Part shown: positions 20,149 through 31,419 of the stretch, one piece after another | Numbering within the stretch: position 1 is the first letter of the stretch | How the letters are laid out: each line of letters opens with the position of its first letter | Assembly: GCA_023920165.1 (NCBI GenBank) | Contig: CP089281.1 | Coordinates: forward strand, 744,001 to 808,000 | Source of the DNA: Curvularia clavata | Taxonomy: Eukaryota | Direction: 5' to 3' | DNA: 64,000 nt | Program-made: the position numbers and the translations under genes | Notes under the pieces: generated by a model | Database searches by the model: none | What the model was told of the DNA's origin: nothing | The model's input: only the letters and a program-made list of their open reading frames with translations

Positions 20149-23006
20149 TCAGATGCGGAAAGAGTCAATACTACCCGGGCCGACCGGGCCGTTAACGAAG
20201 TCCTTGACAGACGATGGTCCTGAGCGCATTGCACGTTGCTCATAAGCCAGTGGGCTTTGAGCTCGGCGGGGGCTCGCTGGCTGGCGTAGGTTATCCATTG
20301 CAGAAACGCGGGCCACGCCGTTGCCATGGCCATTGGTATAACCATTGCCGTGACCGTTGCTATAGCCATTGCCAATCGGCGAAGCTACACGAGATGGGTA
20401 GCCATTCTCATCAGAGTAATCACTGAGCTGGGTATTGTTGCGCGAGCGCAGAGAGGCCGCGATGGAATTGTTGCGGATATCGTTGGGAATCGGCGGTGCC
20501 TGGCGGAAACGACGATTTGGTTGTGTGTGCTCCTTCTCGTCAACCAGGACTACCATCCAAACGCCTACAGATCCATTTTGGCCGAGGAGAGGAGTGCAAT
20601 GAATCCAACGAGGTCGGCCCTCATCTGTTGCTTCTTCGAGATCTTCGACTGGGTGTGGTAACCAACGGATTTTCGCGGTCACGCCACGTGAGCCGTCTGC
20701 AAGTGCGTCACCAAGGGATGCACGGACGCGGTTACTGCCGCCGATTCTATCAAGGAAACGCGACTGAAGGATTCCGGGCACGCGAAGCGATGGGGAAGTA
20801 AAGAGAATACGTAGAGAAGGCGCTGGACGAACGATAAGGTACTGAATCGCATGTTAGTCATTCCATTATGACTCGCAAGAAACATTGTTAAACTCACGTG
20901 CTTGTATGGACCAGAGAGACGCCCGTCGGACGAAATCGATGGCTTCTCTGGCCCGTCAACTTCAAAGGTCGACCGATCCTGAATGAGCAGCCTGGGCTTG
21001 TGCTGAATGGAACCATCATCTTTCTCCTCTAGATGCTCCCGATGCATGTTTCCGCCATATCTGCGCACCGTGTCCAGTTCGGTGTTGTTGAACATCTCAG
21101 AGAGTGCTTGAAATTCGTCCTTGGGAGAATCCTTTTCTATAAGCCCTTCTTCTTGATCAACCATGCGTCGAAACGCGTCGAGTTCTGTGCCATCCTTTAC
21201 AAGACCTGTCACGTCGATTTGCGCGCCAATAAAGTAGCGAACCGTTCCGCGAGAATCACAAAGAGGGGCAATCATCAGGAGGTTCATAAATGGAGAGCCA
21301 TCGCGACGACTAATTACTATTAGCCAAAGGCCACTCAAACTCAATCGACAGATACTACTTACTAGTTCAAAAAGACTTCGCTGTGGTCTTTACCCTCTCG
21401 AGAGGCTTTTGCAAAACGAGCCACACTGTGACGATTCGTTCGGGGTCCCTGTAGGAACCGACAGTTGCGACCAATCGCATAGTTCACCCCATATTGCGTC
21501 GTGCGGTGGAATTCTAGTCTCCGATCAGTGACGCACACTATGTCATGTTTGAGGGGGTACCGACCTTCAGATGCAAAGATGATTGGGTTGTCTGTCCGAG
21601 ATGGGTCCGTCAGGCAGAAAACCTCGGCCAAACCTTCGCTAGCCTCACGCAACATCGGAGGGAGGTTACCCGTGACTCTCTTAGAAATGCTTGCGCTCGC
21701 AACCTGAACGAAGATGTGGGTGATAAAAGCTGGCAAATCATCGCGGACCAAAACGTCAAAGGCCAGGTTGGCCTTTTCTTCCAGGCTTGCGTTGACAGTG
21801 CTTCGTGCTGCGGTCTCCGTAAAGTTCAAGCCATCGATAGGCTCTAGCGCTTCAGCAACAGCGTTTGCATAGTTAATAGCTCGTAGTGCCTTTAGTGCGT
21901 CCAGATAATACACTAATTTAGGGAGTGAGTTTGGTCGATAGGTGCTGAGGAACGAGGTGAATCGAAGCAAAGATGCAGTATCGGCAAAGATTGCGTGCAA
22001 ATGCTCCCTCGAAAACAGCTGATCGGCCCTGTTCTCCAGCGAGAAGAGGGCTCGTTCGTTTTCTACTGGCGCAGGAACCAGATCAAAAGAATGCGGATCA
22101 TCTTCCAGTAGTGGAGAGAGTCTGTCACCGTCATCCAGCGTTCCACCCTTCTGCTGCAGCGGCCCTAGCTGCTGGGTCGCAATGGACGGTGCTACAGACT
22201 CGTAGGAGATGACTGAATCGGCTGAACTTCGCATAGCTGGTGGCTCTGTTTCTGCTGCTTGGGGTGTTTGAGGATTCTGTGGAGTCTGGGAACGCCTTGG
22301 TGTTTGAGAACCCTTTGGTGTCTGGAAATAGTCGTTGGGCGTCTGGGAATCCCTTATTATCTGGGAATTTCTTGGTGTCTGGGGATTCTTCGGTGTCTGT
22401 GAACGCTTTGGGGTGGCTGATGGTGTACGTGAATAACTATGAGCACGCGACCGGTTCCTTTCTGGTGTCGCAGGCCAGATTGGCGACGTTGGTTCTTGAC
22501 TCAATCGTCTTTGCAACTCAACACGATGCTGTTGAGCCTGGGGAGTACTCGAACTAAGTGATTGTAAGCAAACAGAGAAAGAGTATACAAAAGGGATGAA
22601 CGTACCTGGTCCGGAAGGGGATATGAATCTCTCGTCTGGCGAACTCGACTTGGGGCGCTGGTGCGAAGTTATCATCTTCCGAGTGCCAACTTCCTCGACG
22701 CCCGTAGTCGCCCGAACTAATGACGGGTGAAAGAGGGGCACTCGCCCCAATCGGCTCAGCTCCCCCTAGCATAGTTGCAAAATCTAGGACCAGCGGTTCA
22801 TCCAGGGCACCGCCACTACCGTCGTCTTTGGCCTGCGCATCTGCATCGGGGGCCATGACGCTATCAACATAAGCTGGGGCCAGCTCGCTTGGACTCCCTT
22901 TTTGGGCCGAGGTGGAAGTTGAGGCTGATGTTCTGGATGCGTCAGAGGACCTCTTTTGAGAGAACATTCCGTGCGCGGATCGAATCTTGTTCTTGAACAG
23001 GGACAT
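20149..23006 (-). CDS. LOV-domain blue-light photoreceptor, RGS-LOV-DUF type; introns near 22554-22605, 21514-21564, ~21315-21360, ~20843-20897
   Basis: Flavin-binding LOV motif GRNCRFLQG, preceded by FCLTDPSRTDNPIIFASE and followed by NYRRDGSPFMNLL..YFIGAQIDV. There is an upstream helical RGS-like region (LVYYLDALKALRAINYANA) and a C-terminal WIHCTPLLG..GVWMVVLV domain. Confidence 0.9.
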
Positions 23007-26000
23007 GGAGACTGAAAAGGGCTACAACGGCCCAGTTATTTTGAAATGGAAAAGTGCCGGATATTGCAGCTCGCAGATCGAGAGAGCTGGACGCGCAATG
23101 CAGAAAGAGATGCACGCCCCATGACGAAGGGAGGGTCTATGTAGTAGTGTAAACATACCAGGTCGTCAAGCGCAGACTGACACGTTGGGTGGGTCCTTTG
23201 ACTCGAGACAACGGGGCAATTAGCGTCGTGCTGGCAGCGACTGGGCTCGCCGATGTATCCTTTGGATGCGCGAGAGATTGGCTCTAGTTTGGTAAGCTAC
23301 CGTCACAGAACATGGATGCCGCGTTGTCTGGTAGTATGGGCTAATGCAAGGCACGCTCGAGAAGGCAACGCCAGTGATCGTAGATTCGCCCCGTTGCTGT
23401 GAGAAATCGAGAGATTCAATGTCGACGCGCTCAAATACTGCCGAGCGCATCAGGGATGGCGAGAAAGCTAGGCACCCAGCCAATCAGCGCTGTGGCAACC
23501 CAGGGATCGCATGGGACCTGTGAGCTGTACCTTCAGACCGTTTGAAATACGTTGTCAAATCCGGTCCGTTGGAAAATCCGGCCAAAAAGAAACCAATGGC
23601 CACACCAAAGTCTCAACCCGTGAGGTGCACGCGGCTAGCAACATGTTTGTTTTCTGCCGCTTCTTGCATGCACCAGTGCCCTTCTTCCACCGCCGCATTC
23701 GACGGGAGACGGGAGACGGCAGGCGGCAGATACGTATTGATTTCTTCCGAGTGTGGGCGAATGTGATCGGCATTTGTACTTGGGCCCTGGCCATTGCTAC
23801 CTATGTCATACTAGCTCTTGGGTGACTCTGAGTTCAGTCTCACTGGAGGCGGTGGGGATGGGCGAGTTGGCAGTCGCTCAACGACCGGGGGACACGTGCG
23901 TGTGGACCTTCGCGGTGCCAACTGTCAATCCTCAACTGCTACCTGCGGTGTAGACGATGCGCTAGGGGAACGGGTAGACGCTCCAAGCCAGCTGCCTTTT
24001 TTTGCTCAAATAAGAAAGGATAGTTGAAATTGCTCTGTTTGACGCCTCCTTGACGCCATATCGATTGATGTTCCTGACTTCGCTTTCGTATCCTGCAGTT
24101 CGGTCCTTTGAGATGCCTTCAATTGGGATGGCCTGGCTCGTTGGCGTCCTGTCTGGAACCGATGCACATTACTCGGGAACCTGATAAGCCCACAGACCGC
24201 CCCTCGCAGACATGGATGGCATGACTGGTGTCGTTTGGGGAGCAGGGGCACGGACTCTACTCCGCGATTAAGTGGTGTTGACCTTGAGGTTGGAGCGGCG
24301 AAGCATTCAGCTGCACTACTGCAGCCGACCCAGCAAAGTTTGGATTCATGACGTATTGACAACTGGGAGAAATGGGTGGGCGGCCAGGGTGCCTGGTGCT
24401 GGGAAGGGTTTGCGATGCCGAAACGCAGGGCAGCGTTCCCCAGTGCTGATCGAGTTTTTCCTTTTTGCATAATTATCCGAGTGAACGAGTGACCGTGTTC
24501 CCGTAGCAGCGCAGAGAGAGGCGTGGGGTTGTGCTCGCACGTGAACAAATGTCCACCACCTTCTCAGCGTTGCATACAGTAGCTACACAACTGTGGCGCA
24601 TCCTGTCCCTCCACCACCGCCTACTCCTAGCACGGCTGCAATCAATAGCAAATATTCGAGGCCACTCTAATCCAAGCTAACGATCATCCTCGCCAGCATG
24701 CAGCTAGTGGCGATGCGACCAGACCTGGACATCGCATCCGTCCTGAACATGTCAAATACGGGTCAATATTGGAACCGGAACCCAGCCAATCACGACGTGC
24801 GAGGGCCTAGAAGCCCGCCAGAACCATCATACCCAGCTGATGGCTAACATTCTACGTCATGAACGATGTTACCCCCGGATCGGGCAGCGGCCGCAGCCGA
24901 TAATGTGCACTACCAGTACCAAGCTAGAGCGGAGAAGAGCGGTTGAACCGCTCAGATTCGACTCACGCCTAGTCCCCTCGCCCCTGAGCCTGTGCAGGAG
25001 ACCTTACCAACGAATCTTGAGACACACATGGTCACGAAGTCTTGTGGCCGAACCTTTTGATCGTACATGGTTCTTTTACTTTTTAATCATGTTTTGCATA
25101 AAAATAGGCATGTTCAGGCTTGTGCGGTAATCCCGAATACAATCTTGCCCTTAGGACTACTGTAACGTACATCGTGACCAGTCAACGGAATGAGGACGAA
25201 CCACTAACTACATGAGCTATGTAGCAGCGAAAAAAAAATTATCCAGAGACCCGAAACTACGCAGTGTAGTTGGGAGAACATGTGTTCAAGTTGCAACGGA
25301 ACAATTCATACACATTTTGCTCGTTATCTTAGACCCAATTGGAACTATTTCAATGAACAAGAAAATGTAATGGGTTTTCTTATGCTGACGAACCTCGCGA
25401 TACTCAGATACATAGTCAACGGTTAACAAGGCAACATGTTCGAGCAACGAAAGATGGATAATGAGCACTGAACCTTTGAGGCATCAGAAATGCCGCATAT
25501 GCCTCACCAACGGTCACCCAATATTTGTACTTCAAAGTAATCCTTTACACGGGTACCCTCGCTATCCACCCATAGATTCCTATAGTATTATGTTGCTCAC
25601 TTGAAAGCACGACAAGACGCACATATTGTAGCCATCCTATTCCTCTTCTACCGCCCCCTGAAAAATAAAATCCATTGACATGAGCAAGCACGGCATATGA
25701 GTGTCACCTACCATGATCAATGAGAGGTCGCACTCAGTTACCATCTTTGGGTTTGCCACCTGCCCTATGTCGTCCGTGAACCTTAATTTCTATGGCTGGT
25801 ACTTTCTTTTTCTCGGATTCGTGAGCTTCCATGACTTCTGGAAGCAAAACCCAAAACAGCTAAACGGCGCGGACATGGCCGAGCAAGTTGATCTGTGGCA
25901 AGCAGTAAAAAGTAATGGATAGAATAGCGCCGAAGCGCTGCCTGAACCAAGGTTGTGAAACGAAAATAGAAACAGCACGTTGCCACCCGCAATATACCAT

Positions 26001-26297
26001 TCTCTCGACAGTATAGCAGTCAGTTGCCATTACACCGTGGCTGAGAGGAAGACACATACATGTAGGTAATTGCAGGATTTCACGAGCTCAGGTTACTACT
26101 TGGTAGCAGTGAGCTCTTTCGTGTCTGCGTCAACAGCTGTGCAACCACATATCTCTATAACACGCAAAAACATGTTCTATCTCTGCAACTATGCTACATA
26201 TAATGCTCTACTTGTAGTGCAAAAAAGATTTATCTAACGCGGCTAGCGTGGCTTATCCTACTCGCTTCCTCCTTCACCTCTTTTCCGTTTGATTGCC

Positions 26298-26312
26298 AAA
26301 AAAGGCAAAAAA
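26298..26312 (-). terminator. Tandem Pol III terminators (T6-GCC-T6)
   Basis: A6 runs at 26307-26312 and 26298-26303 on the + strand, directly after the 3' strand of the terminal helix. Confidence 0.7.
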
Positions 26313-26615
26313 TCAACCAATCCAACTCTCAGCTTCTGTTGCTCCAACGGACGTCCTTAGTTGGATTCGAACGCCCGTCCTCCTAGCTTAGCAACCCATT
26401 GTTGGTGACGACAACACTAGGTTATTCGAGACTTTCCTATGCCTGTCAGCAGTCTATTACATGTTGCAATCTTGCCTTCCTGCGGTGGTCAGGGCATCCT
26501 GTCTCCTGAGGGCATCCCATAATTGGGGAATTATTTCGCTCGATTCGAGACCCAGTGTCGCCGTCGTCGTCGTGCTAGGAGCCCACCCGACCACTGAGAG
26601 TATGGATTGGTTGAT
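26312..26615 (-). ncRNA. Candidate ~304-nt structured RNA polymerase III transcript, family unassigned
   Basis: The 5' and 3' ends form a 21-bp helix with a 1-nt bulge. Three further helices are present, and their non-Watson-Crick pairs are G-U only on the minus strand. A-box-like TGGTCGGGTGG, B box GTTCGAATCC, upstream ATAAATA, and two T6 runs at the 3' end. Confidence 0.8.
26363..26372 (-). promoter_or_regulatory. Pol III B box (GTTCGAATCC)
   Basis: Exact match to the GTTCRANYC consensus, inside the candidate ncRNA. Confidence 0.7.
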
Positions 26616-27686
26616 GAAATAATGGGAATTACTTTGATATTTATGCTTGCATTATTAGCAAACGGGTACTGGGGCTTTTGTAGCAAACACTGGGCTGCCG
26701 AATTCAGTCGAGCGATGGCCAGGGACAGCAAACGGCCCTGACAGTGCTATCTTACAAAAGCCCAAATTGCTTGCGTACACAAATGCCAATAACGGCTGCC
26801 CTAGCCCTGTTGCCGTCTGACTTCTCCGAGCATATACGGTAGGGTTGTCTTTGATTTCTATAGACCACAGAGCAGTTTGTACCTGGACTCGTGTATAGCG
26901 GCTCGACATACTTGCGTATTACGAAGTAATTTCCGCAAAAAGCCTCGCCCGCCCAATTACTCTTCTGTCTGGTTGACTTCTAGTCCTTAAGCCTCTATTA
27001 TGCGTAGTCGAAAGAAACAGATGTAGGCGGCAAGACAAAGCATGTTTTTGCGTAATTACCAAAACACCGAGAGCCAGGACTTGCACGTAAATCATTTTTA
27101 CATACACTCTGGGATTGATGCACAGGAGTGATATCATATGAATATCAACACAAAGGCTTATGATAGAGAAGAGTTTGAAAGGGCAGAAGTAGTCACCAGT
27201 GATAGTCCAAGTCCTAATATATGCTTTGCCCCTGATGAAAATGGTACAAGGCTCGTTTCGAATAATTTATCGGATACAGCTACGAATGAAGTCTTAGCAG
27301 CTGCTGAGTTAATCCTGGTGCATGTGTACCCAGAGAGATGGCCCTAGCTGAGGTACTAGGCTCCTCCAGTAGGCCAAGGGTGTGTCTATGACAGGACGTA
27401 TATAAGATAGACACAGCTGCTGTAATGGAGACGTACAAGGACATTCACACTCAAAAACAATCACGGCAAGACATGGCAAACACTGGGACTGGAAGATGAT
27501 GTCTATTGGCGTGAGGGGTTACTCAAAGCCATAATGGCACACCACTATATCTGCATCGTGATATCGTCGCTTTCCATGCGTATGAAAGTGCAGAAGAGAG
27601 AATAATCGAGAAGTCCGAGAAACCACGCCGTTGACCATCCGTATCCCATGTTGCCAGCCCACAAATCCGAACCACCTCTGCAACGT

Positions 27687-28305
27687 TTAGATGTAGGTCT
27701 CGTAAGGTACGGGTGTGATGTTCTCTGGCTTGTTGTCCTTGAGGCTGACGACACGGTCGCCACGGGGCATGGCAGGCTGGCGCTTCATCTGCTGGGGCTC
27801 GCCAGTCTCCTTGGCCTTTTGTTGCTTGGCGAAGTTGAGCTTGACGCGCTTGAGGAAGTCCTCTCGTGAGCGCGAGTGGCGGACGTGCTCGATGCGGACG
27901 TTGATGCGCTTCTCGAGGTATCGGTTGCCGACCTGCTTCTGGAGGATGACACCAACAGCGGACTTGGTGACGTTGTAGACGATACCGGTCTTGCCGTGGT
28001 AGACCTTGTAGGGCATACCCTTCTGGACCGCACCTGCGCAAAATCATAAGTCCTCCGCCTCCAATGCTTTTCGCTGGGTTGAACAGGGTTTCGTACCGTT
28101 GGCAACGACATCGACGATATCACCGACCTTGTACTGCTTGAGGTAGGTCGAGAGAGGGATCATACCCTTCTTCTTGAAGTCCCTCGAGAATCTAGCCCAG
28201 CGTCAGTCCATGTCGTCGTCGCCATCGCATTGCGACCAGCGTAATTTTTCGGGATGCAACGTACGCATAGCGCGTACCCGCGCGAAGACCGGCTGCGTGA
28301 CCCAT
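27687..28305 (-). CDS. RPL21: 60S ribosomal protein L21 (eL21); introns 28192-28264, 28034-28096
   Basis: [66 protein letters not shown]. Confidence 0.97.
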
Positions 28306-28885: not shown

Positions 28886-29668
28886 ATGGCGCCCCGCTCC
28901 TACTCCAAGACGTACAGCGTCCCCCGTCGTCCTTTCGAGTCCGCTCGTCTGTATGTGATTCCCCATGGCCACTGAGCGAGAGCGTGCTCCGCTTATGTCT
29001 GGGACACTGGTTAATTTTTGGCTAGGGATACTGAGCTGAAGCTCGTCGGCGAGTATGGTCTCCGCAACAAGCGCGAGGTCTGGCGAGTCCAGTTGACTCT
29101 GTCCAAGATCCGTCGTGCCGCCCGGTGAGTACTCAATTGCGCGCTCTGCACGCGATGCGAAATTTCGGAAAAGCGACAACCGCTAACTTTGACCAGTTCG
29201 CTTCTTACTCTTGACGAGAAGGACCCCAAGCGCCTCTTCGAGGGTAACGCTCTCATTCGCCGTCTCGTCCGTGTCGGTGTCCTCGACGAGTCCCGCATGA
29301 AGCTCGATTACGTCTTGGCCCTCAAGATTGAGGACTTCTTGGAGCGCCGTCTCCAGACCTGCGTCTACAAGCTCGGTCTTGCCAAGTCCATCCACCACGC
29401 TCGTGTCCTCATCCGCCAGCGCCACATCCGGTATGTCTTTGCTTCCAAGCAATCGCTGGGAAAAATTCGCGACTAACAAGGCCACAGTGTCGGAAAGCAG
29501 ATCGTCAACGTCCCCTCCTTCATGGTCCGCCTCGACTCCCAGAAGCACATTGACTTCGCTCTGACCTCGCCATTCGGTGGCGGCCGCCCTGGCCGTGTCA
29601 GGAGGAAGAAGGCCAAGGCCGCCGAGAAGGGTGGTGATGACGACGCCGGCGAGGAGGACGAGGAGTAA
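28886..29668 (+). CDS. RPS9: 40S ribosomal protein S9 (uS4); 3 introns (about 28951-29025, 29125-29196, 29431-29488)
   Basis: [76 protein letters not shown]. Confidence 0.97.
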
Positions 29669-30155: not shown

Positions 30156-31419
30156 CTAGTAGGTCGAGTCATCCGTGTACAACCTCGTTACAGGACTCGG
30201 TCTCCTATCCTCGCTCGCTGTGAGTCCGGCCGCGACTTTCTCCTGGCCCACCTTTGCACGTGCCTCCTGCATAATCCACAGTCCACTGCTGGTACCCAGT
30301 CTAGTAGCACCAGCCTCGAGCATCTTAACAGCAGTGTCGAGTTCCCTTACGCCGCCACTCGCCTTGACTTCCATTTGGCGCTTGCCAATGCCCTTGGAAG
30401 CAAGGTGCTCTGCGGCACCGACCATGAGCTGGACGTTGGGGAGCGTGGCACCGGGGCCGTTGAAGCCTGTCGACGTCTTGATGAAGTCAAAGGACGCGGC
30501 GGCAGCAAGGTGCGAGGCAGCAAGGATTTGTGCGGGTGTCAGCTGGGAAGTTTCGAGGATGAGTTTGAGTGTTGTGGTGGGGCAGAGAGAGCGGATCGTG
30601 GCTAGTTCTCTGTATATAGCGCTGTAGTCTGGAATCTCTTCACTTCCAGCGGTAGCAGCAGCACCAGCGTTCTTGGCCGTGTTGGCAGCTGTGATGCTGT
30701 CAATGGCCGAGTCTCTGGAGCTAAGGGCAACGGGTTCCCGGCGGTTGTGCTTTGTGAGCAGCGAGTGGTTGAGCACAACGTCGAGTTCAGCGGCGCCGGC
30801 TGCCACGGCAGCACGTGCTTCACGGCATTTGGAGTATGTGTCTTGGGTTCCCTCGTGGAAACCGACAACGCAGGCGACGAGGACATCGCTGCCTTTCAGG
30901 TTCGACACGCAGCGCTGCACCCAGTTCAGACGCACGCATACGGACTATTAATCAATATCAGTTCAATCGGTCTCAAGTTGCCTTGTTCGCATGTGATTTC
31001 AACACCGTGTGATGATGATGCAAACACAGAAAGCATACCTTGAATCCTTCAGTCCTCGCCTCACTACACAGTCCATCTATGGCTGAACTAGTCGCATCCA
31101 GCTTCAAGACGGTATGATCAATTGTCTTAGCCAACTCTTTCAGCGCCTCCTCTCCATTGCGCATCCGCGGTCCTTCGTAAACCTTGCTTGCGCGCTCCCC
31201 GCTCTTCACCTCCTGCAGCACATGCTTGGTCGTCTCATCGATCTGCGCCTGCCACTCGGCATTCGTATACCGATCCGTCATCATTTTGATTGGCGATTGC
31301 TCGTCGTTGTCAAGATCCGGGTTAGCGGCCAGGAACCCACGGATCAGCACTTCGGATTCTGTGAGGGGGATGGGGTGGGGGTTTGCTGCAGCGCCTCCGG
31401 TTCCCGTTGAAGATGACAT
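30156..31419 (-). CDS. Deoxyribose-phosphate aldolase (DeoC/DERA); intron 30945-31038
   Basis: IDHTVLK, SVCV, VVGFHEG, GAAELDVV, LKLILET, DFIKTSTGF (Schiff-base Lys), VKASGGVR, GATRLGTSS and a terminal Tyr. The start may be a downstream Met. Confidence 0.93.

What the first reader, a model, noticed from the sequence alone, without database searches (positions are those of the whole stretch)
26312..26615. Unannotated ~304-nt highly structured ncRNA gene in the long intergenic gap
Seen, on the minus strand: P1, 5' end 26594-26615 paired with 3' end 26312-26332 (21 bp, one bulged nt). P2, CUCCUAGC/GCUAGGAG (26574-26581 with 26380-26387). P3, GACGGCGACACUGGGU/ACCUAGUGUUGUCGUC (26550-26565 with 26407-26422; 16 bp, 3 G-U). 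P4, a side hairpin (26369-26379 with 26346-26356; 11 bp, 3 G-U). An apical domain of about 125 nt has further small hairpins, e.g. AUUGCA-ACA-UGUAAU and AGACU..AGUCU. All six non-Watson-Crick pairs in P3 and P4 are G-U on this strand and would be A-C mismatches on the other, which points to selection on RNA structure rather than a DNA inverted repeat. Knowledge: I could not find the SRP Alu start (GCUGURAUGGC) or helix 8, the RNase P/MRP P4 pair, U6 or U3 boxes, or a telomerase template. Inference: an abundant stand-alone RNA of unknown function. The known family to exclude first is the similarly sized Aspergillus RNA Afu-182; I recall its size but cannot compare sequences.
Basis: partly seen in the sequence, partly recalled or inferred. 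Interest (0 to 1): 0.9.

Follow-up and report, generated by a model that had tools for sequence, protein, structure and literature searches.

The report
Unclassified structured small RNA gene in fungus
A 304-base stretch between genes of a Pleosporales fungus most likely encodes a tightly folded small RNA that matches no catalogued RNA family, but its expression and function have not been shown.

Summary
On the minus strand, 26312-26615 folds at -124.2 kcal/mol (z -6.8 against shuffles; plus strand -108.2).

Partial copies in public runs keep P4 through two double compensatory changes. P1 and P3 carry only wobble-compatible single changes, plus one or two ambiguous breaks.

The unit has RNA polymerase III-type signals. 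These are a TATA-like box about 30 nt upstream, a GTTCGAATCC B-box-like decamer (the only one in 64 kb), a partial A-box and two T6 runs at the 3' end.

No Rfam family matches. That covers SRP, RNase P/MRP, vault, Y and the Afu families seen in the library. The locus lacks the insA neighbour of Afu-182.

One run holds at least three versions that share the basal modules, one of them with a different, shorter apical domain. So this is a small family, not a single gene.

Best reading (0.55): a polymerase III "panhandle" RNA, built like vault or VA RNA, in a Pleosporales fungus. A mobile SINE/MITE-like element is not excluded (0.2).

Transcription is unproven. I obtained no full sequences of relatives, so I ran no formal covariation test.

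The parts
26312..26615 (-). Proposed RNA gene, 304 nt, from the first paired A to the last paired U
   Evidence: Fold z -6.77. Stems verified. Similarity of related contigs ends inside or at these borders while the contigs run on into unlike sequence (tables 1, 7, 8).
26637..26645 (-). TATA-like CATAAATAT, 22-30 nt upstream of the proposed 5' end
   Evidence: Read from the sequence. No change is listed here in the one related contig that covers it, X13 record 7. Not all differences are listed by that tool.
26594..26615 (-). P1 5' strand
   Evidence: 21 pairs plus one bulge with 26312-26332. 26607 A>G in a relative keeps the pair as G-U.
26591..26601 (-). Partial A-box-like ACUCUCAGUGG. It matches the recalled consensus TRGCNNAGTGG at 6 of its 9 specified positions.
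   Evidence: Read from the sequence. The consensus is recalled, not taken from a tool. The stretch 26574-26598 shows no listed change in X13, X16 or X19, and 26574-26594 recurs with one change in the high-depth X18 contig.
26574..26581 (-). P2 5' strand CUCCUAGC
   Evidence: 8 Watson-Crick pairs with 26380-26387. No listed change in the laid contigs that cover it; the high-depth X18 contig has one unlocated change somewhere in 26574-26594. So it gives no covariation evidence.
26550..26569 (-). P3 5' strand, including the 4-pair extension
   Evidence: Pairs with 26392-26395 and 26407-26422. 26561 G>A gives A-U. 26563 C>A would break a pair in X16, next to an indel.
26423..26549 (-). Apical domain, about 127 nt, with GGAUGCCCU twice (26509-26517, 26491-26499) and the AUUGCA-ACA-UGUAAU hairpin
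   Evidence: The X19 relative has 1 listed change in 26420-26507. It has 10 substitutions plus 3 insertions in 26328-26419. Two MFE pairs here (26508/26447, 26537/26528) are broken by changes in relatives, so the MFE of this domain is not supported. One X18 contig replaces 174 nt here with 91 other letters (table 5).
26407..26422 (-). P3 3' strand
   Evidence: 26419 U>C turns G-U into G-C in X16 and X19.
26379..26398 (-). Best-conserved module, UGGGUUGCUAAGCUAGGAGG. It contains the P2 3' strand (26380-26387).
   Evidence: No listed change in any of the 5 X13 contigs, 3 X18 contigs or the X19 contig that cover it. It occurs once in the window with up to 3 mismatches allowed.
26346..26379 (-). 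P4 hairpin: 11 pairs and a 12-nt loop
   Evidence: Two double compensatory changes: 26378/26347 A-U>G-C, and 26374/26351 G-U>C-G. Two pairs change G-C>G-U. The loop is 6 nt shorter in X18 record 10.
26363..26372 (-). B-box-like GTTCGAATCC. It matches 10 of 11 positions of the recalled consensus GGTTCGANTCC.
   Evidence: It is the only GTTCGANTCC in 64 kb on either strand. 0.39 matches are expected per window.
26312..26332 (-). P1 3' strand
26298..26311 (-). Two T runs, UUUUU-GCC-UUUUUU, directly after the last paired base. This looks like a polymerase III terminator.
   Evidence: Read from the sequence. By my reading, the loose ends of two X18 contigs also show two T runs after P1 (table 7).

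Best explanation
This is a gene for a roughly 300-nt non-coding RNA read from the minus strand, most likely by RNA polymerase III. The inferred promoter is a TATA-like box near -30 plus internal A-box-like and B-box-like elements placed near the two ends of the RNA. Transcription would stop in the T6 run that directly follows the last paired base, which leaves a short oligo-U tail. The 5' and 3' ends pair into a 21-bp terminal stem (P1). P2 and P3 continue the rod, P4 is a side hairpin that carries the B-box, and an apical domain of about 127 nt sits on top. The basal part (P1, P2, P4 and the two promoter-bearing modules) is shared by a small family of related units in close relatives. The apical domain is nearly invariant among the closest copies but is replaced in another family member. 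By inference, the base provides transcription, end protection and probably export. A base-paired 5' end with a 3' U overhang is the La-binding and 'minihelix' arrangement known from VA and vault RNAs (recalled). By inference, the apical domain is the specific working surface that binds a protein or another RNA. Shown: the fold, its strand bias and its maintenance by compensatory change. Inferred: polymerase III transcription, the exact ends, stability, and every step of function.
For: Fold: z -6.77 on the minus strand against -4.49 on the plus strand, and -124.2 against -108.2 kcal/mol.

Stems: 60 pairs with 7 G-U and 0 A·C.

Changes in partial relatives from coded runs:
- P4 has two pairs changed on both sides and still paired: A-U>G-C in X18 record 10, and G-U>C-G in X18 record 10 and X19.
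- Six single-sided changes keep a standard pair: 26349, 26350, 26378, 26419, 26561, 26607.
- The P4 loop varies in length while the stem is kept.
- The loose end of the 945-nt X18 contig shares the same P4 variant. By my reading all 11 pairs hold, with a 6-nt loop.

Polymerase III-type signals:
- The only GTTCGANTCC in 64 kb lies inside the element.
- Two T6 runs start at the base after P1, and a TATA-like box lies at -30 to -22.
- The A-box and B-box regions are the parts shared by all family versions.

Other evidence:
- A 284-nt contig of a 93%-like relative in an oligo-dT RNA library spans 26328-26598 plus 10 letters and nothing more. This is a weak hint of a discrete RNA.
- X13 record 7 crosses the 5' border into 46 nt of flank. 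Four of its 5 differences lie at 26607-26629, so the body is close to identical. Two flank contigs differ at 13 of 232 and 12 of 330 places.
- There is no other copy in the window and no Pfam match among the overlapping ORFs scanned.
Against: - There is no direct evidence of transcription, of the ends, or of the polymerase. All laid runs were contigs, and the RNA library may contain DNA.
- The A-box match is weak (6 of 9 specified positions). The A-to-B distance is about 220 nt, far above the 30-60 nt typical of type 2 promoters (recalled).
- One change (26563, X16) would break a P3 pair. One (26369, X19) would break a P4 pair. Both lie beside indels, so the alignment there is uncertain.
- P2 never varies, so it gives no support.
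- Changes in relatives contradict two apical MFE pairs.
- The covariation evidence comes from a table of differences in short contigs of unknown linkage, not from an alignment of whole sequences. I could run no statistical covariation test.
- Several versions in one run, one at about 7-20 times the depth of the others in a 945-nt contig, fit a repeated element as well as a gene family.
- Exact-word scans with the two best-conserved modules found nothing in metagenome, prokaryote-genome or viral collections. Conservation beyond close relatives is therefore unknown.
Confidence: 0.55

Rival explanations
1. It is one copy of a short non-autonomous mobile element. It could be a MITE whose terminal inverted repeats are the P1 arms. 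It could also be a SINE-like retroposon that carries its own polymerase III promoter. On this reading the fold is a by-product of its palindromic build.
For: - P1 is a 21-bp terminal inverted repeat.
- At least three versions of 26366-26399 occur in the single-label run X18. One sits at depth 68.7, against 3.1-10.2 for the others, inside a 945-nt contig.
- The contigs run on into flanks unlike the window's (table 1).
- Four runs with the same species label hold none of the sampled words. That could mean presence/absence polymorphism, though the tool warns it is no proof of absence.
- B-box-bearing repeats are typical of SINEs (abstract of PMC7279448 in the listing).
Against: - I found no target-site duplication by reading the borders. 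The flanks are ...CATTATTTC and TTTTTGCC... on the minus strand.
- There is no second copy and no solo terminus in 64 kb.
- The termini are less conserved than the internal A-box and B-box modules, the opposite of a MITE.
- Mismatches are all G-U on one strand (7 to 0), and P4 is kept through changes on both sides. A DNA element is under no such constraint.
- There is no A-rich or simple-repeat tail. The T-run terminator lies at the unit's own end.
- X13 record 7 shows the unit at the same place next to the same upstream flank in a close relative.
Confidence: 0.2
2. It is a polymerase III-transcribed precursor of small RNAs. Dicer or another nuclease cuts the 21-bp terminal stem (open end with a U overhang) or the 16-20-bp P3 into 21-23-nt microRNA-like RNAs.
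For: - P1 has 21 pairs and a 22-nt 5' arm. Its 5' end is paired and it has a predicted 3' U overhang.
- P3 is a 16-20-bp duplex.
- In Neurospora the major microRNA-like RNAs depend on polymerase III (PMC3547838, title and abstract in the listing).
- Vault RNA also yields Dicer-dependent small RNAs (PMC10087102, abstract in the listing).
Against: - I could inspect no small-RNA data.
- The best-conserved parts are the apical domain and the promoter modules, not the duplex arms. The P1 sequence differs between family versions, so any small RNA from it would not be conserved.
- A 304-nt multi-domain fold is far larger than a hairpin precursor needs to be.
Confidence: 0.1
3. It is a strongly diverged copy of a universal RNA of similar size (SRP RNA, RNase P or RNase MRP RNA) or of the Aspergillus RNA Afu-182.
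For: - The size is about 300 nt, and Afu-182 runs at 300 nt on a northern blot (PMC2377427, Table 2 passage).
- The signals are polymerase III-like.
- A GGAAAGUC stretch at 26428-26435 recalls the CR-I motif of RNase P/MRP. A UGUAAU at 26456-26461 recalls the SRP Alu motif. Both resemblances are recalled, and both motifs sit in the wrong position.
Against: - No Rfam family reached its gathering score in the window.
- None matched at E<=10 in 901 nt.
- On 326 nt alone, the only match was Afu_513 at 11.3 bits against a cut-off of 48.
- The helix order does not fit RNase P/MRP (P1, P2, a local P3 hairpin, then CR-I) or eukaryotic SRP RNA (a 5' Alu fold). Those layouts are recalled.
- Afu-182 lies beside insA, an INSIG homologue (PMC13439689, passages). 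No INSIG domain was found in the 71 ORFs I scanned, out of 116 ORFs of 45 aa or more between 22500 and 30500.
- Several versions in one run would be unusual for these single-copy genes.
Confidence: 0.05
4. It is a chance or purely DNA-level palindrome with no RNA product.
For: - The plus strand also folds better than shuffles (z -4.49), as any inverted repeat would.
- Transcription has not been shown.
Against: - The minus strand is 16 kcal/mol more stable.
- G-U to A·C is 7 to 0.
- Compensatory changes occur in P4.
- The terminator, the TATA-like box and the B-box are all on the same strand in the right order.
Confidence: 0.03

Closest known systems
Vault RNAs (animals, some protists)
   Same: [quoted passage not shown] Recalled: the boxes lie in the conserved 5' and 3' parts, which pair into a terminal stem; the central domain varies; there are several paralogues per genome; the gene ends in a T run.
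   Different: This RNA is about three times longer (304 nt against roughly 90-140, recalled). The Rfam library gave no vault match. Vaults are described as lost in fungi (PMC3762200, abstract and passages). The A-box match is weak.
Adenovirus VA RNA I
   Same: Recalled: a polymerase III transcript with internal A and B boxes, a terminal stem formed by the paired 5' and 3' ends with a U tail (the 'minihelix' export motif), a central domain and an apical stem. Dicer can cut the terminal stem.
   Different: VA RNA is viral, about 160 nt, and has no sequence relation to this RNA. I tested nothing about PKR-like targets or export.
Y RNAs, including bacterial tRNA-like YrlA
   Same: The 5' and 3' ends form the basal stem, and the upper part is variable. 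Bacterial Y RNAs carry a tRNA-like module (PMC4201824, abstract in the listing). Here the B-box is T-loop-like, and one related contig can form a 7-bp hairpin with a UUCAAAU loop (my reading, table 7).
   Different: There is no Rfam Y RNA match. The size is about three times larger. I could not test whether this fungus has Ro60.
Afu-182 and other Aspergillus fumigatus RNAs of unknown class (Afu-202, Afu-309)
   Same: They are structured intergenic RNAs of about 220-350 nt, conserved within a fungal genus and of no known class (PMC2377427, passages).
   Different: There is no Rfam match to any Afu family above noise. The insA neighbour of Afu-182 is absent. This fungus is in Pleosporales, a different class from Aspergillus. 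I could not align the sequences directly.
Polymerase III-dependent microRNA-like RNA precursors of Neurospora
   Same: They are structured RNAs made by polymerase III in a filamentous ascomycete (PMC3547838, title and abstract).
   Different: I had no small-RNA evidence. This RNA is larger and has several domains. Its conserved parts are not the duplex arms.
tRNA-derived SINEs and MITEs
   Same: It has a B-box, a partial A-box and terminal inverted repeats, and more than one version occurs in a genome-scale run.
   Different: The boxes are about 220 nt apart. There is no tail and I saw no target-site duplication. The termini are less conserved than the interior, and the structure is kept by compensatory change.

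Membership tests
Any Rfam 15 family (SRP, RNase P/MRP, vault, Y RNA, tRNA, snRNAs, snoRNAs, ribozymes, Afu families) | Covariance-model score at or above the family's gathering score | tested here: not met
   There were 0 matches at gathering score in 64 kb and 0 at E<=10 in 901 nt. On 326 nt, 1 match appeared: Afu_513 at 11.3 bits against 48, E 3.7. I did not verify that a model for Afu-182 is among the 4227 families. Afu_513 is.
Afu-182 | Position next to the INSIG homologue insA | tested here: not met
   No INSIG domain appeared in the 71 ORFs scanned at E<=0.1, out of 116 ORFs of 45 aa or more between 22500 and 30500. The neighbours are RPL21e, uS4 and a DeoC aldolase. This is a weak test, because synteny need not hold between fungal classes.
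tRNA gene or tRNA-derived SINE head | Cloverleaf detectable by a tRNA finder | tested here: not met
   ARAGORN with default settings found 0 in the window and 0 in the region with introns up to 300 nt allowed. A 'tRNA-Ser(gct) with a 179-nt intron' appears only at -ps80, where the same setting gives 172 calls in 64 kb. It is gone at -ps90.
tRNA-derived SINE | A and B boxes 30-60 nt apart in a 5' head, a 3' tail, and target-site duplications | tested here: not met
   The boxes are about 220 nt apart. There is no A-rich or repeat tail. Reading the flanks showed no direct repeat. Copy number in the genome could not be tested because no genome is held.
MITE | Terminal inverted repeats | tested here: met
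   The arms are 21 bp with one bulge, 13 nt of them perfect.
MITE | Target-site duplication and many near-identical dispersed copies | tested here: inconclusive
   I saw no duplication at the borders. There is one copy in 64 kb. At least three versions occur in run X18, one at much higher depth. No genome is held for a count.
MITE | Termini are the best-conserved part | tested here: not met
   P1 differs between versions, whereas 26379-26398 and 26574-26598 show no listed change.
Polymerase III type 2-like gene (the kind, not a family) | Internal B-box | tested here: met
   GTTCGAATCC lies at 26363-26372 and is the only match in 64 kb, with 0.39 expected. The consensus is recalled.
Polymerase III type 2-like gene (the kind, not a family) | Internal A-box about 10-20 nt from the start | tested here: inconclusive
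   ACUCUCAGUGG at RNA positions 15-25 matches 6 of the 9 specified positions of the recalled consensus.
Polymerase III type 2-like gene (the kind, not a family) | T-run terminator at the 3' end | tested here: met
   A run of 6 T includes the last paired base, and a second T6 follows 3 nt later.
Polymerase III type 2-like gene (the kind, not a family) | Occupancy by, or dependence on, polymerase III or TFIIIC | not testable with these tools
   This needs ChIP or a transcription assay.
Vault RNA | Association with the major vault protein, and a host that encodes MVP | not testable with these tools
   No genome is held. The literature describes vaults as lost in fungi (PMC3762200).

The most novel reading that the evidence does not exclude
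This is the founding member of an undescribed, lineage-restricted family of modular polymerase III 'panhandle' RNAs in Pleosporales fungi. It would be a fungal counterpart of vault, Y and VA RNAs in a kingdom thought to lack them. A conserved base (P1, P2, P4 and the split A/B promoter) drives transcription, end protection and export. An exchangeable apical domain gives each paralogue its own protein or RNA partner.
Probability: 0.35. Interest if true: 0.7.

Novelty: new variant of a known kind. Interest (0 to 1): 0.55.

Why it matters
The known polymerase III repertoire of filamentous fungi is short: tRNAs, 5S, U6, SRP and RNase P/MRP RNAs. Mid-size RNAs of the vault, Y or VA type have not been described in them.

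A structured, selectively maintained 300-nt RNA with its own promoter modules and paralogues would add a new class to that list, in an order that contains many crop pathogens. It would also give a compact system for studying how a split A/B promoter tolerates a 220-nt spacer.

If the unit proves to be a mobile element, it would instead be an unusual case of a transposon whose RNA fold is under selection. Either result can be reached with ordinary genome searches and a northern blot.

Tried and rejected
**Rfam.** I ran it three ways. The only result was a noise-level Afu_513 match.

**tRNA gene with a giant intron.** ARAGORN at -ps80 drew a tRNA-Ser(gct) cloverleaf over 26353-26600 with a 179-nt intron. 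The same setting makes 172 calls in 64 kb, and the call vanishes at -ps90. X19 changes at 26358 and 26359 would break its acceptor stem. I rejected it as noise.

**Fetching relatives.** Exact scans with the 19-mer (26379-26397) and the 22-mer (26574-26595) gave 0 hits each in metagenome contigs, genome contigs and viral contigs. A search for both words in the full text of papers gave 0. As a result I built no alignment, no covariance model, and ran no R-scape-like count.

**Own genome.** None is held, so I could not count copies.

**Earlier findings of this scan.** Four look-ups returned nothing.

**Second copy in the window.** blastn with word size 7 and nhmmer found only the element and its own arms. 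The terminal motif ATCAAYCARTCY gave 3 matches against 2.36 expected, two of which are the element's own arms.

**Cover of flanks by X16, X18 and X19.** Their contigs have depth only within the bins spanning 26261-26617 (table 2). The tool says missing cover is no finding, so I do not use it.

**Runs X20-X23.** They have the same species label and hold 0.00 of the words. The tool says this is no proof of absence.

**A joint in X13.** It runs 26323>26575, one contig, depth 2.82, side 24. It may be an artefact of the inverted P1 arms, and I did not use it.

**MFE of the apical domain.** Changes in relatives break pairs 26508/26447 and 26537/26528, so I do not propose that part of the fold.

**Bacterial-type promoter and terminator scan.** It is not relevant to a fungus, and the counts were at chance level.

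**Literature.** I saw passages or listings only, and none describes this RNA. The papers were two fungal structured-RNA screens (PMC8216456; PMC5640933), a Cochliobolus transposon survey that mentions 7 Tc1-mariner MITEs without sequences (PMC4112212), and the Aspergillus screen (PMC2377427). I did not open their supplements, and those could hold alignments that bear on this.

Full report
**What is in the sequence**

On the minus strand, 26615 to 26312 reads as a 304-nt unit with G+C 0.516.
- P1 joins the two ends: 21 pairs, with one bulged U at 26602.
- P2 has 8 pairs.
- P3 has 16 pairs, plus 4 more after a small internal loop.
- P4 is a side hairpin of 11 pairs with a 12-nt loop.
- Across these 60 pairs, 53 are Watson-Crick, 7 are G-U, and none is A·C or any other mismatch.

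The fold is -124.2 kcal/mol against -89.1 +/- 5.2 for 100 dinucleotide-preserving shuffles. That is z -6.77, and no shuffle did as well. The complementary strand reaches only -108.2, z -4.49.

In 638 folds of 304-nt windows across the 64 kb, the mean was -86.5 (sd 15.7). The eight most stable windows printed had G+C of 0.59-0.63. My sampling register missed the element's own start, so its rank is by comparison only.

**Signals around it**

All of these lie on the minus strand.
- CATAAATAT lies 22-30 nt upstream of the first paired base.
- RNA positions 15-25 read ACUCUCAGUGG. This is a partial match to the tRNA-type A-box as I recall it (6 of 9 specified positions).
- GTTCGAATCC lies at 26363-26372. 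It matches 10 of 11 positions of the recalled B-box and is the only GTTCGANTCC in the whole window on either strand, with 0.39 expected per window. By my arithmetic that is roughly 0.001 for one on this strand of this element.
- The last paired U is the first base of a T6 run, and a second T6 follows three bases later.
- TATA-like box, internal boxes and terminator are in the order and orientation of a polymerase III gene. None of them has been shown to function.

The window contains no tRNA gene. Every overlapping ORF that I scanned lacked a Pfam match.

The neighbours are an RPL21e gene on the same strand, which ends about 1.07 kb upstream, a uS4 fragment and a DeoC aldolase. The best named relatives of a nearby ORF come from Exserohilum (71%), Alternaria (67%) and Pyrenophora (64%).

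**Known families**

- Rfam 15 (4227 models) gave no match at gathering score in the window.
- It gave none at E<=10 in 901 nt around the element.
- On the element alone it gave only Afu_513 at 11.3 bits against a cut-off of 48.
- A true SRP, RNase P, RNase MRP, vault, Y or tRNA-like RNA should have scored. The helix order also fits none of them, as far as I recall their layouts.
No INSIG domain appeared in the 71 ORFs I scanned, out of 116 ORFs of 45 aa or more between 22500 and 30500.
- I could not align the two RNAs directly, and I did not verify that an Afu-182 model is in the library.

**Relatives**

No genome is held for this window. Exact-word scans with the two best-conserved modules found nothing in the metagenome, prokaryote-genome or viral collections.

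The only comparative data are Logan contigs of four coded runs laid on 25700-27200. Those four were picked from 19 runs in 15 studies that hold part of the stretch. The contigs are 80-99% alike, short, and of unknown linkage, so what follows is bookkeeping on a table of differences, not an alignment.

I checked every listed substitution against its pairing partner.

In P4:
- 26378/26347 changes from A-U to G-C in X18 record 10.
- 26374/26351 changes from G-U to C-G in X18 record 10 and in X19.
- 26376/26349 and 26375/26350 go from G-C to G-U.
- 26378 changed alone gives G-U.
- The loop is 6 nt shorter in X18 record 10 and carries insertions in X19.
- The loose end of the 945-nt X18 contig shows the same P4 variant. 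By my reading all 11 pairs are kept, with a 6-nt loop.

In P3:
- 26419 turns G-U into G-C (X16, X19).
- 26561 turns G-U into A-U (X13, X16).

In P1:
- 26607 turns A-U into G-U (X13).
- The insertions listed at 26320 and 26322, read together with the loose end beyond 26598, suggest coordinated changes on both arms. The two arms lie on different contigs, so I count this only as suggestive.

Against the structure:
- 26563 (X16) would give A·G. It lies beside a 2-nt deletion, and its partner is 4 nt from the contig's end.
- 26369 (X19) would give G·G. It lies beside an insertion.

P2 never varies. Two pairs of the predicted apical fold are broken in relatives, so I do not trust the MFE there.

In total, two pairs changed on both sides, six kinds of single change kept a standard pair, and two changes were ambiguous breaks. 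Several of the tolerated changes (C>U opposite G, A>G opposite U) are neutral only for the minus-strand RNA. This supports selection on an RNA fold, in line with the 7-to-0 excess of G-U over A·C.

**A family, not a lone gene**

- Region 26366-26399 (P2 3' strand, start of P4, B-box) is covered by five different contigs in X13 and three in X18.
- Region 26574-26598 (A-box region, P2 5' strand) is also shared.
- The contigs then run on into sequence unlike the window. The share running on unlike is 0.73, 1 and 1 for X13, X16 and X18.
- In X18, which carries a single species label, the three versions have depths 3.1, 10.2 and 68.7.
- The deepest is a 945-nt contig in which 174 nt of P3 plus the apical domain are replaced by 91 other letters (table 5).
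- In one X13 contig, the letters that replace P4 can form a 7-bp hairpin with a UUCAAAU loop, which is T-arm-like. This is my reading of the 30 letters shown in table 7.
- In contrast, the apical domain is almost invariant in the X19 relative. It has 1 listed change in 26420-26507, against 10 substitutions and 3 insertions in 26328-26419.
- X13 record 7 crosses the 5' border into 46 nt of the same upstream flank. Four of its five differences lie at 26607-26629, so the unit sits at the same locus in a close relative and its body is close to identical. Two flank contigs differ at 13 of 232 and 12 of 330 places.
- Whether X18 is DNA or RNA is a guess by the tool. The depth ratio therefore means either copy number or expression.

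**Expression**

The only library on record as RNA is X19, an oligo-dT metatranscriptome. It holds one 284-nt contig of a 93%-like relative that spans 26328-26598 plus 10 further letters and nothing else. The length fits a discrete RNA of about 300 nt. The tool warns that this does not show transcription, and I treat it as a weak hint.

**Interpretation**

The best reading (0.55) is a polymerase III-type gene for a rod-shaped 'panhandle' RNA.
- The promoter modules sit in the conserved 5' and 3' parts, which pair with each other.
- The terminator directly follows the terminal stem. The RNA would therefore have a paired 5' end and a short U overhang.
- A distinct apical domain would do the specific work.

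This is how vault RNA genes are built: a type 2 promoter with box A and box B (PMC7904556, passages), and, as I recall, a terminal stem and a variable centre. As I recall, VA RNA I and Y RNAs are built the same way.

It is not a member of any of these families. There is no model match, it is about three times longer, and vaults are described as lost in fungi (PMC3762200).

The main rival (0.2) is a short mobile element, either a MITE with P1 as its inverted repeats or a SINE-like unit with its own promoter.
- For it: the several versions and the high-depth contig.
- Against it: no target-site duplication, termini less conserved than the interior, strand-specific wobble pairs, compensatory changes, and the same locus in a close relative.

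A role as a precursor of small RNAs (0.1) is compatible with the 21-bp open-ended stem and with polymerase III-dependent microRNA-like RNAs in Neurospora (PMC3547838, abstract). It remains untested. A diverged known RNA (0.05) and a functionless palindrome (0.03) are unlikely.

**Rejected lead**

ARAGORN at a relaxed threshold drew a tRNA-Ser cloverleaf with a 179-nt intron over the element. That setting produces 172 calls in 64 kb, and the call disappears at -ps90, so it is noise. A remote tRNA ancestry of the A/B modules remains possible but is not shown.

**Verdict**

This is a real, strand-specific, selectively maintained RNA structure with polymerase III-type signals, and it is absent from Rfam. 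It belongs to a small family in a Pleosporales fungus and its close relatives. Its architecture is a new variant of the vault/VA/Y kind of panhandle RNA. Its transcription, copy number and function still have to be established.

Noticed in passing
window 27688-28305 (-) and 29129-29473 (+): A ribosomal protein L21e gene with introns (ATG at 28305, stop near 27688) and a uS4/S9 exon lie on opposite strands about 0.8 kb apart. They look like a divergent ribosomal-protein gene pair just upstream of the RNA unit.
   Followed up: partly
window 21365-22765 (-): This is a long ORF of 467 aa with no Pfam hit of its own. Its relatives are 640-820-aa PAS/PAC-domain proteins of Pleosporales, and one is named 'white collar protein'. 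It is probably one exon of a light-sensor-like gene, and it places the window in Pleosporales.
   Followed up: partly
window 26162-26182 and 27033-27053: A 21-nt inverted repeat (86%, 13 nt perfect) brackets the RNA unit at about 130 and 420 nt from its ends. Its core, AACATGTT, is itself a palindrome, and a third similar site lies at 25275-25286. It could be a shared protein-binding site or chance.
   Followed up: no
window 26491-26499 and 26509-26517 (-): GGAUGCCCU occurs twice, 9 nt apart, in the apical domain of the RNA. It may be a pair of binding sites. Position 26508, next to the first copy, differs in all four laid runs.
   Followed up: no
window 26291-26320 (-): The two T runs are part of a possible hairpin, UUGCC-UUUUUU-GGCAA. 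It is followed by AUCAA, which repeats the RNA's first five bases. An alternative pairing of the 3' trailer with UUGAU of P1 is therefore possible.
   Followed up: no
window 30159-30944 (-): An ORF has a DeoC/LacD aldolase domain (E 8.8e-12).
   Followed up: no
runs X20-X23: Four runs carry the same species label as the best holders and are of genome-like size (30-38 million letters), yet hold none of the 30 sampled words of 26290-26640. This could be strain-level divergence or absence of the locus. The tool warns it is no proof of absence.
   Followed up: no
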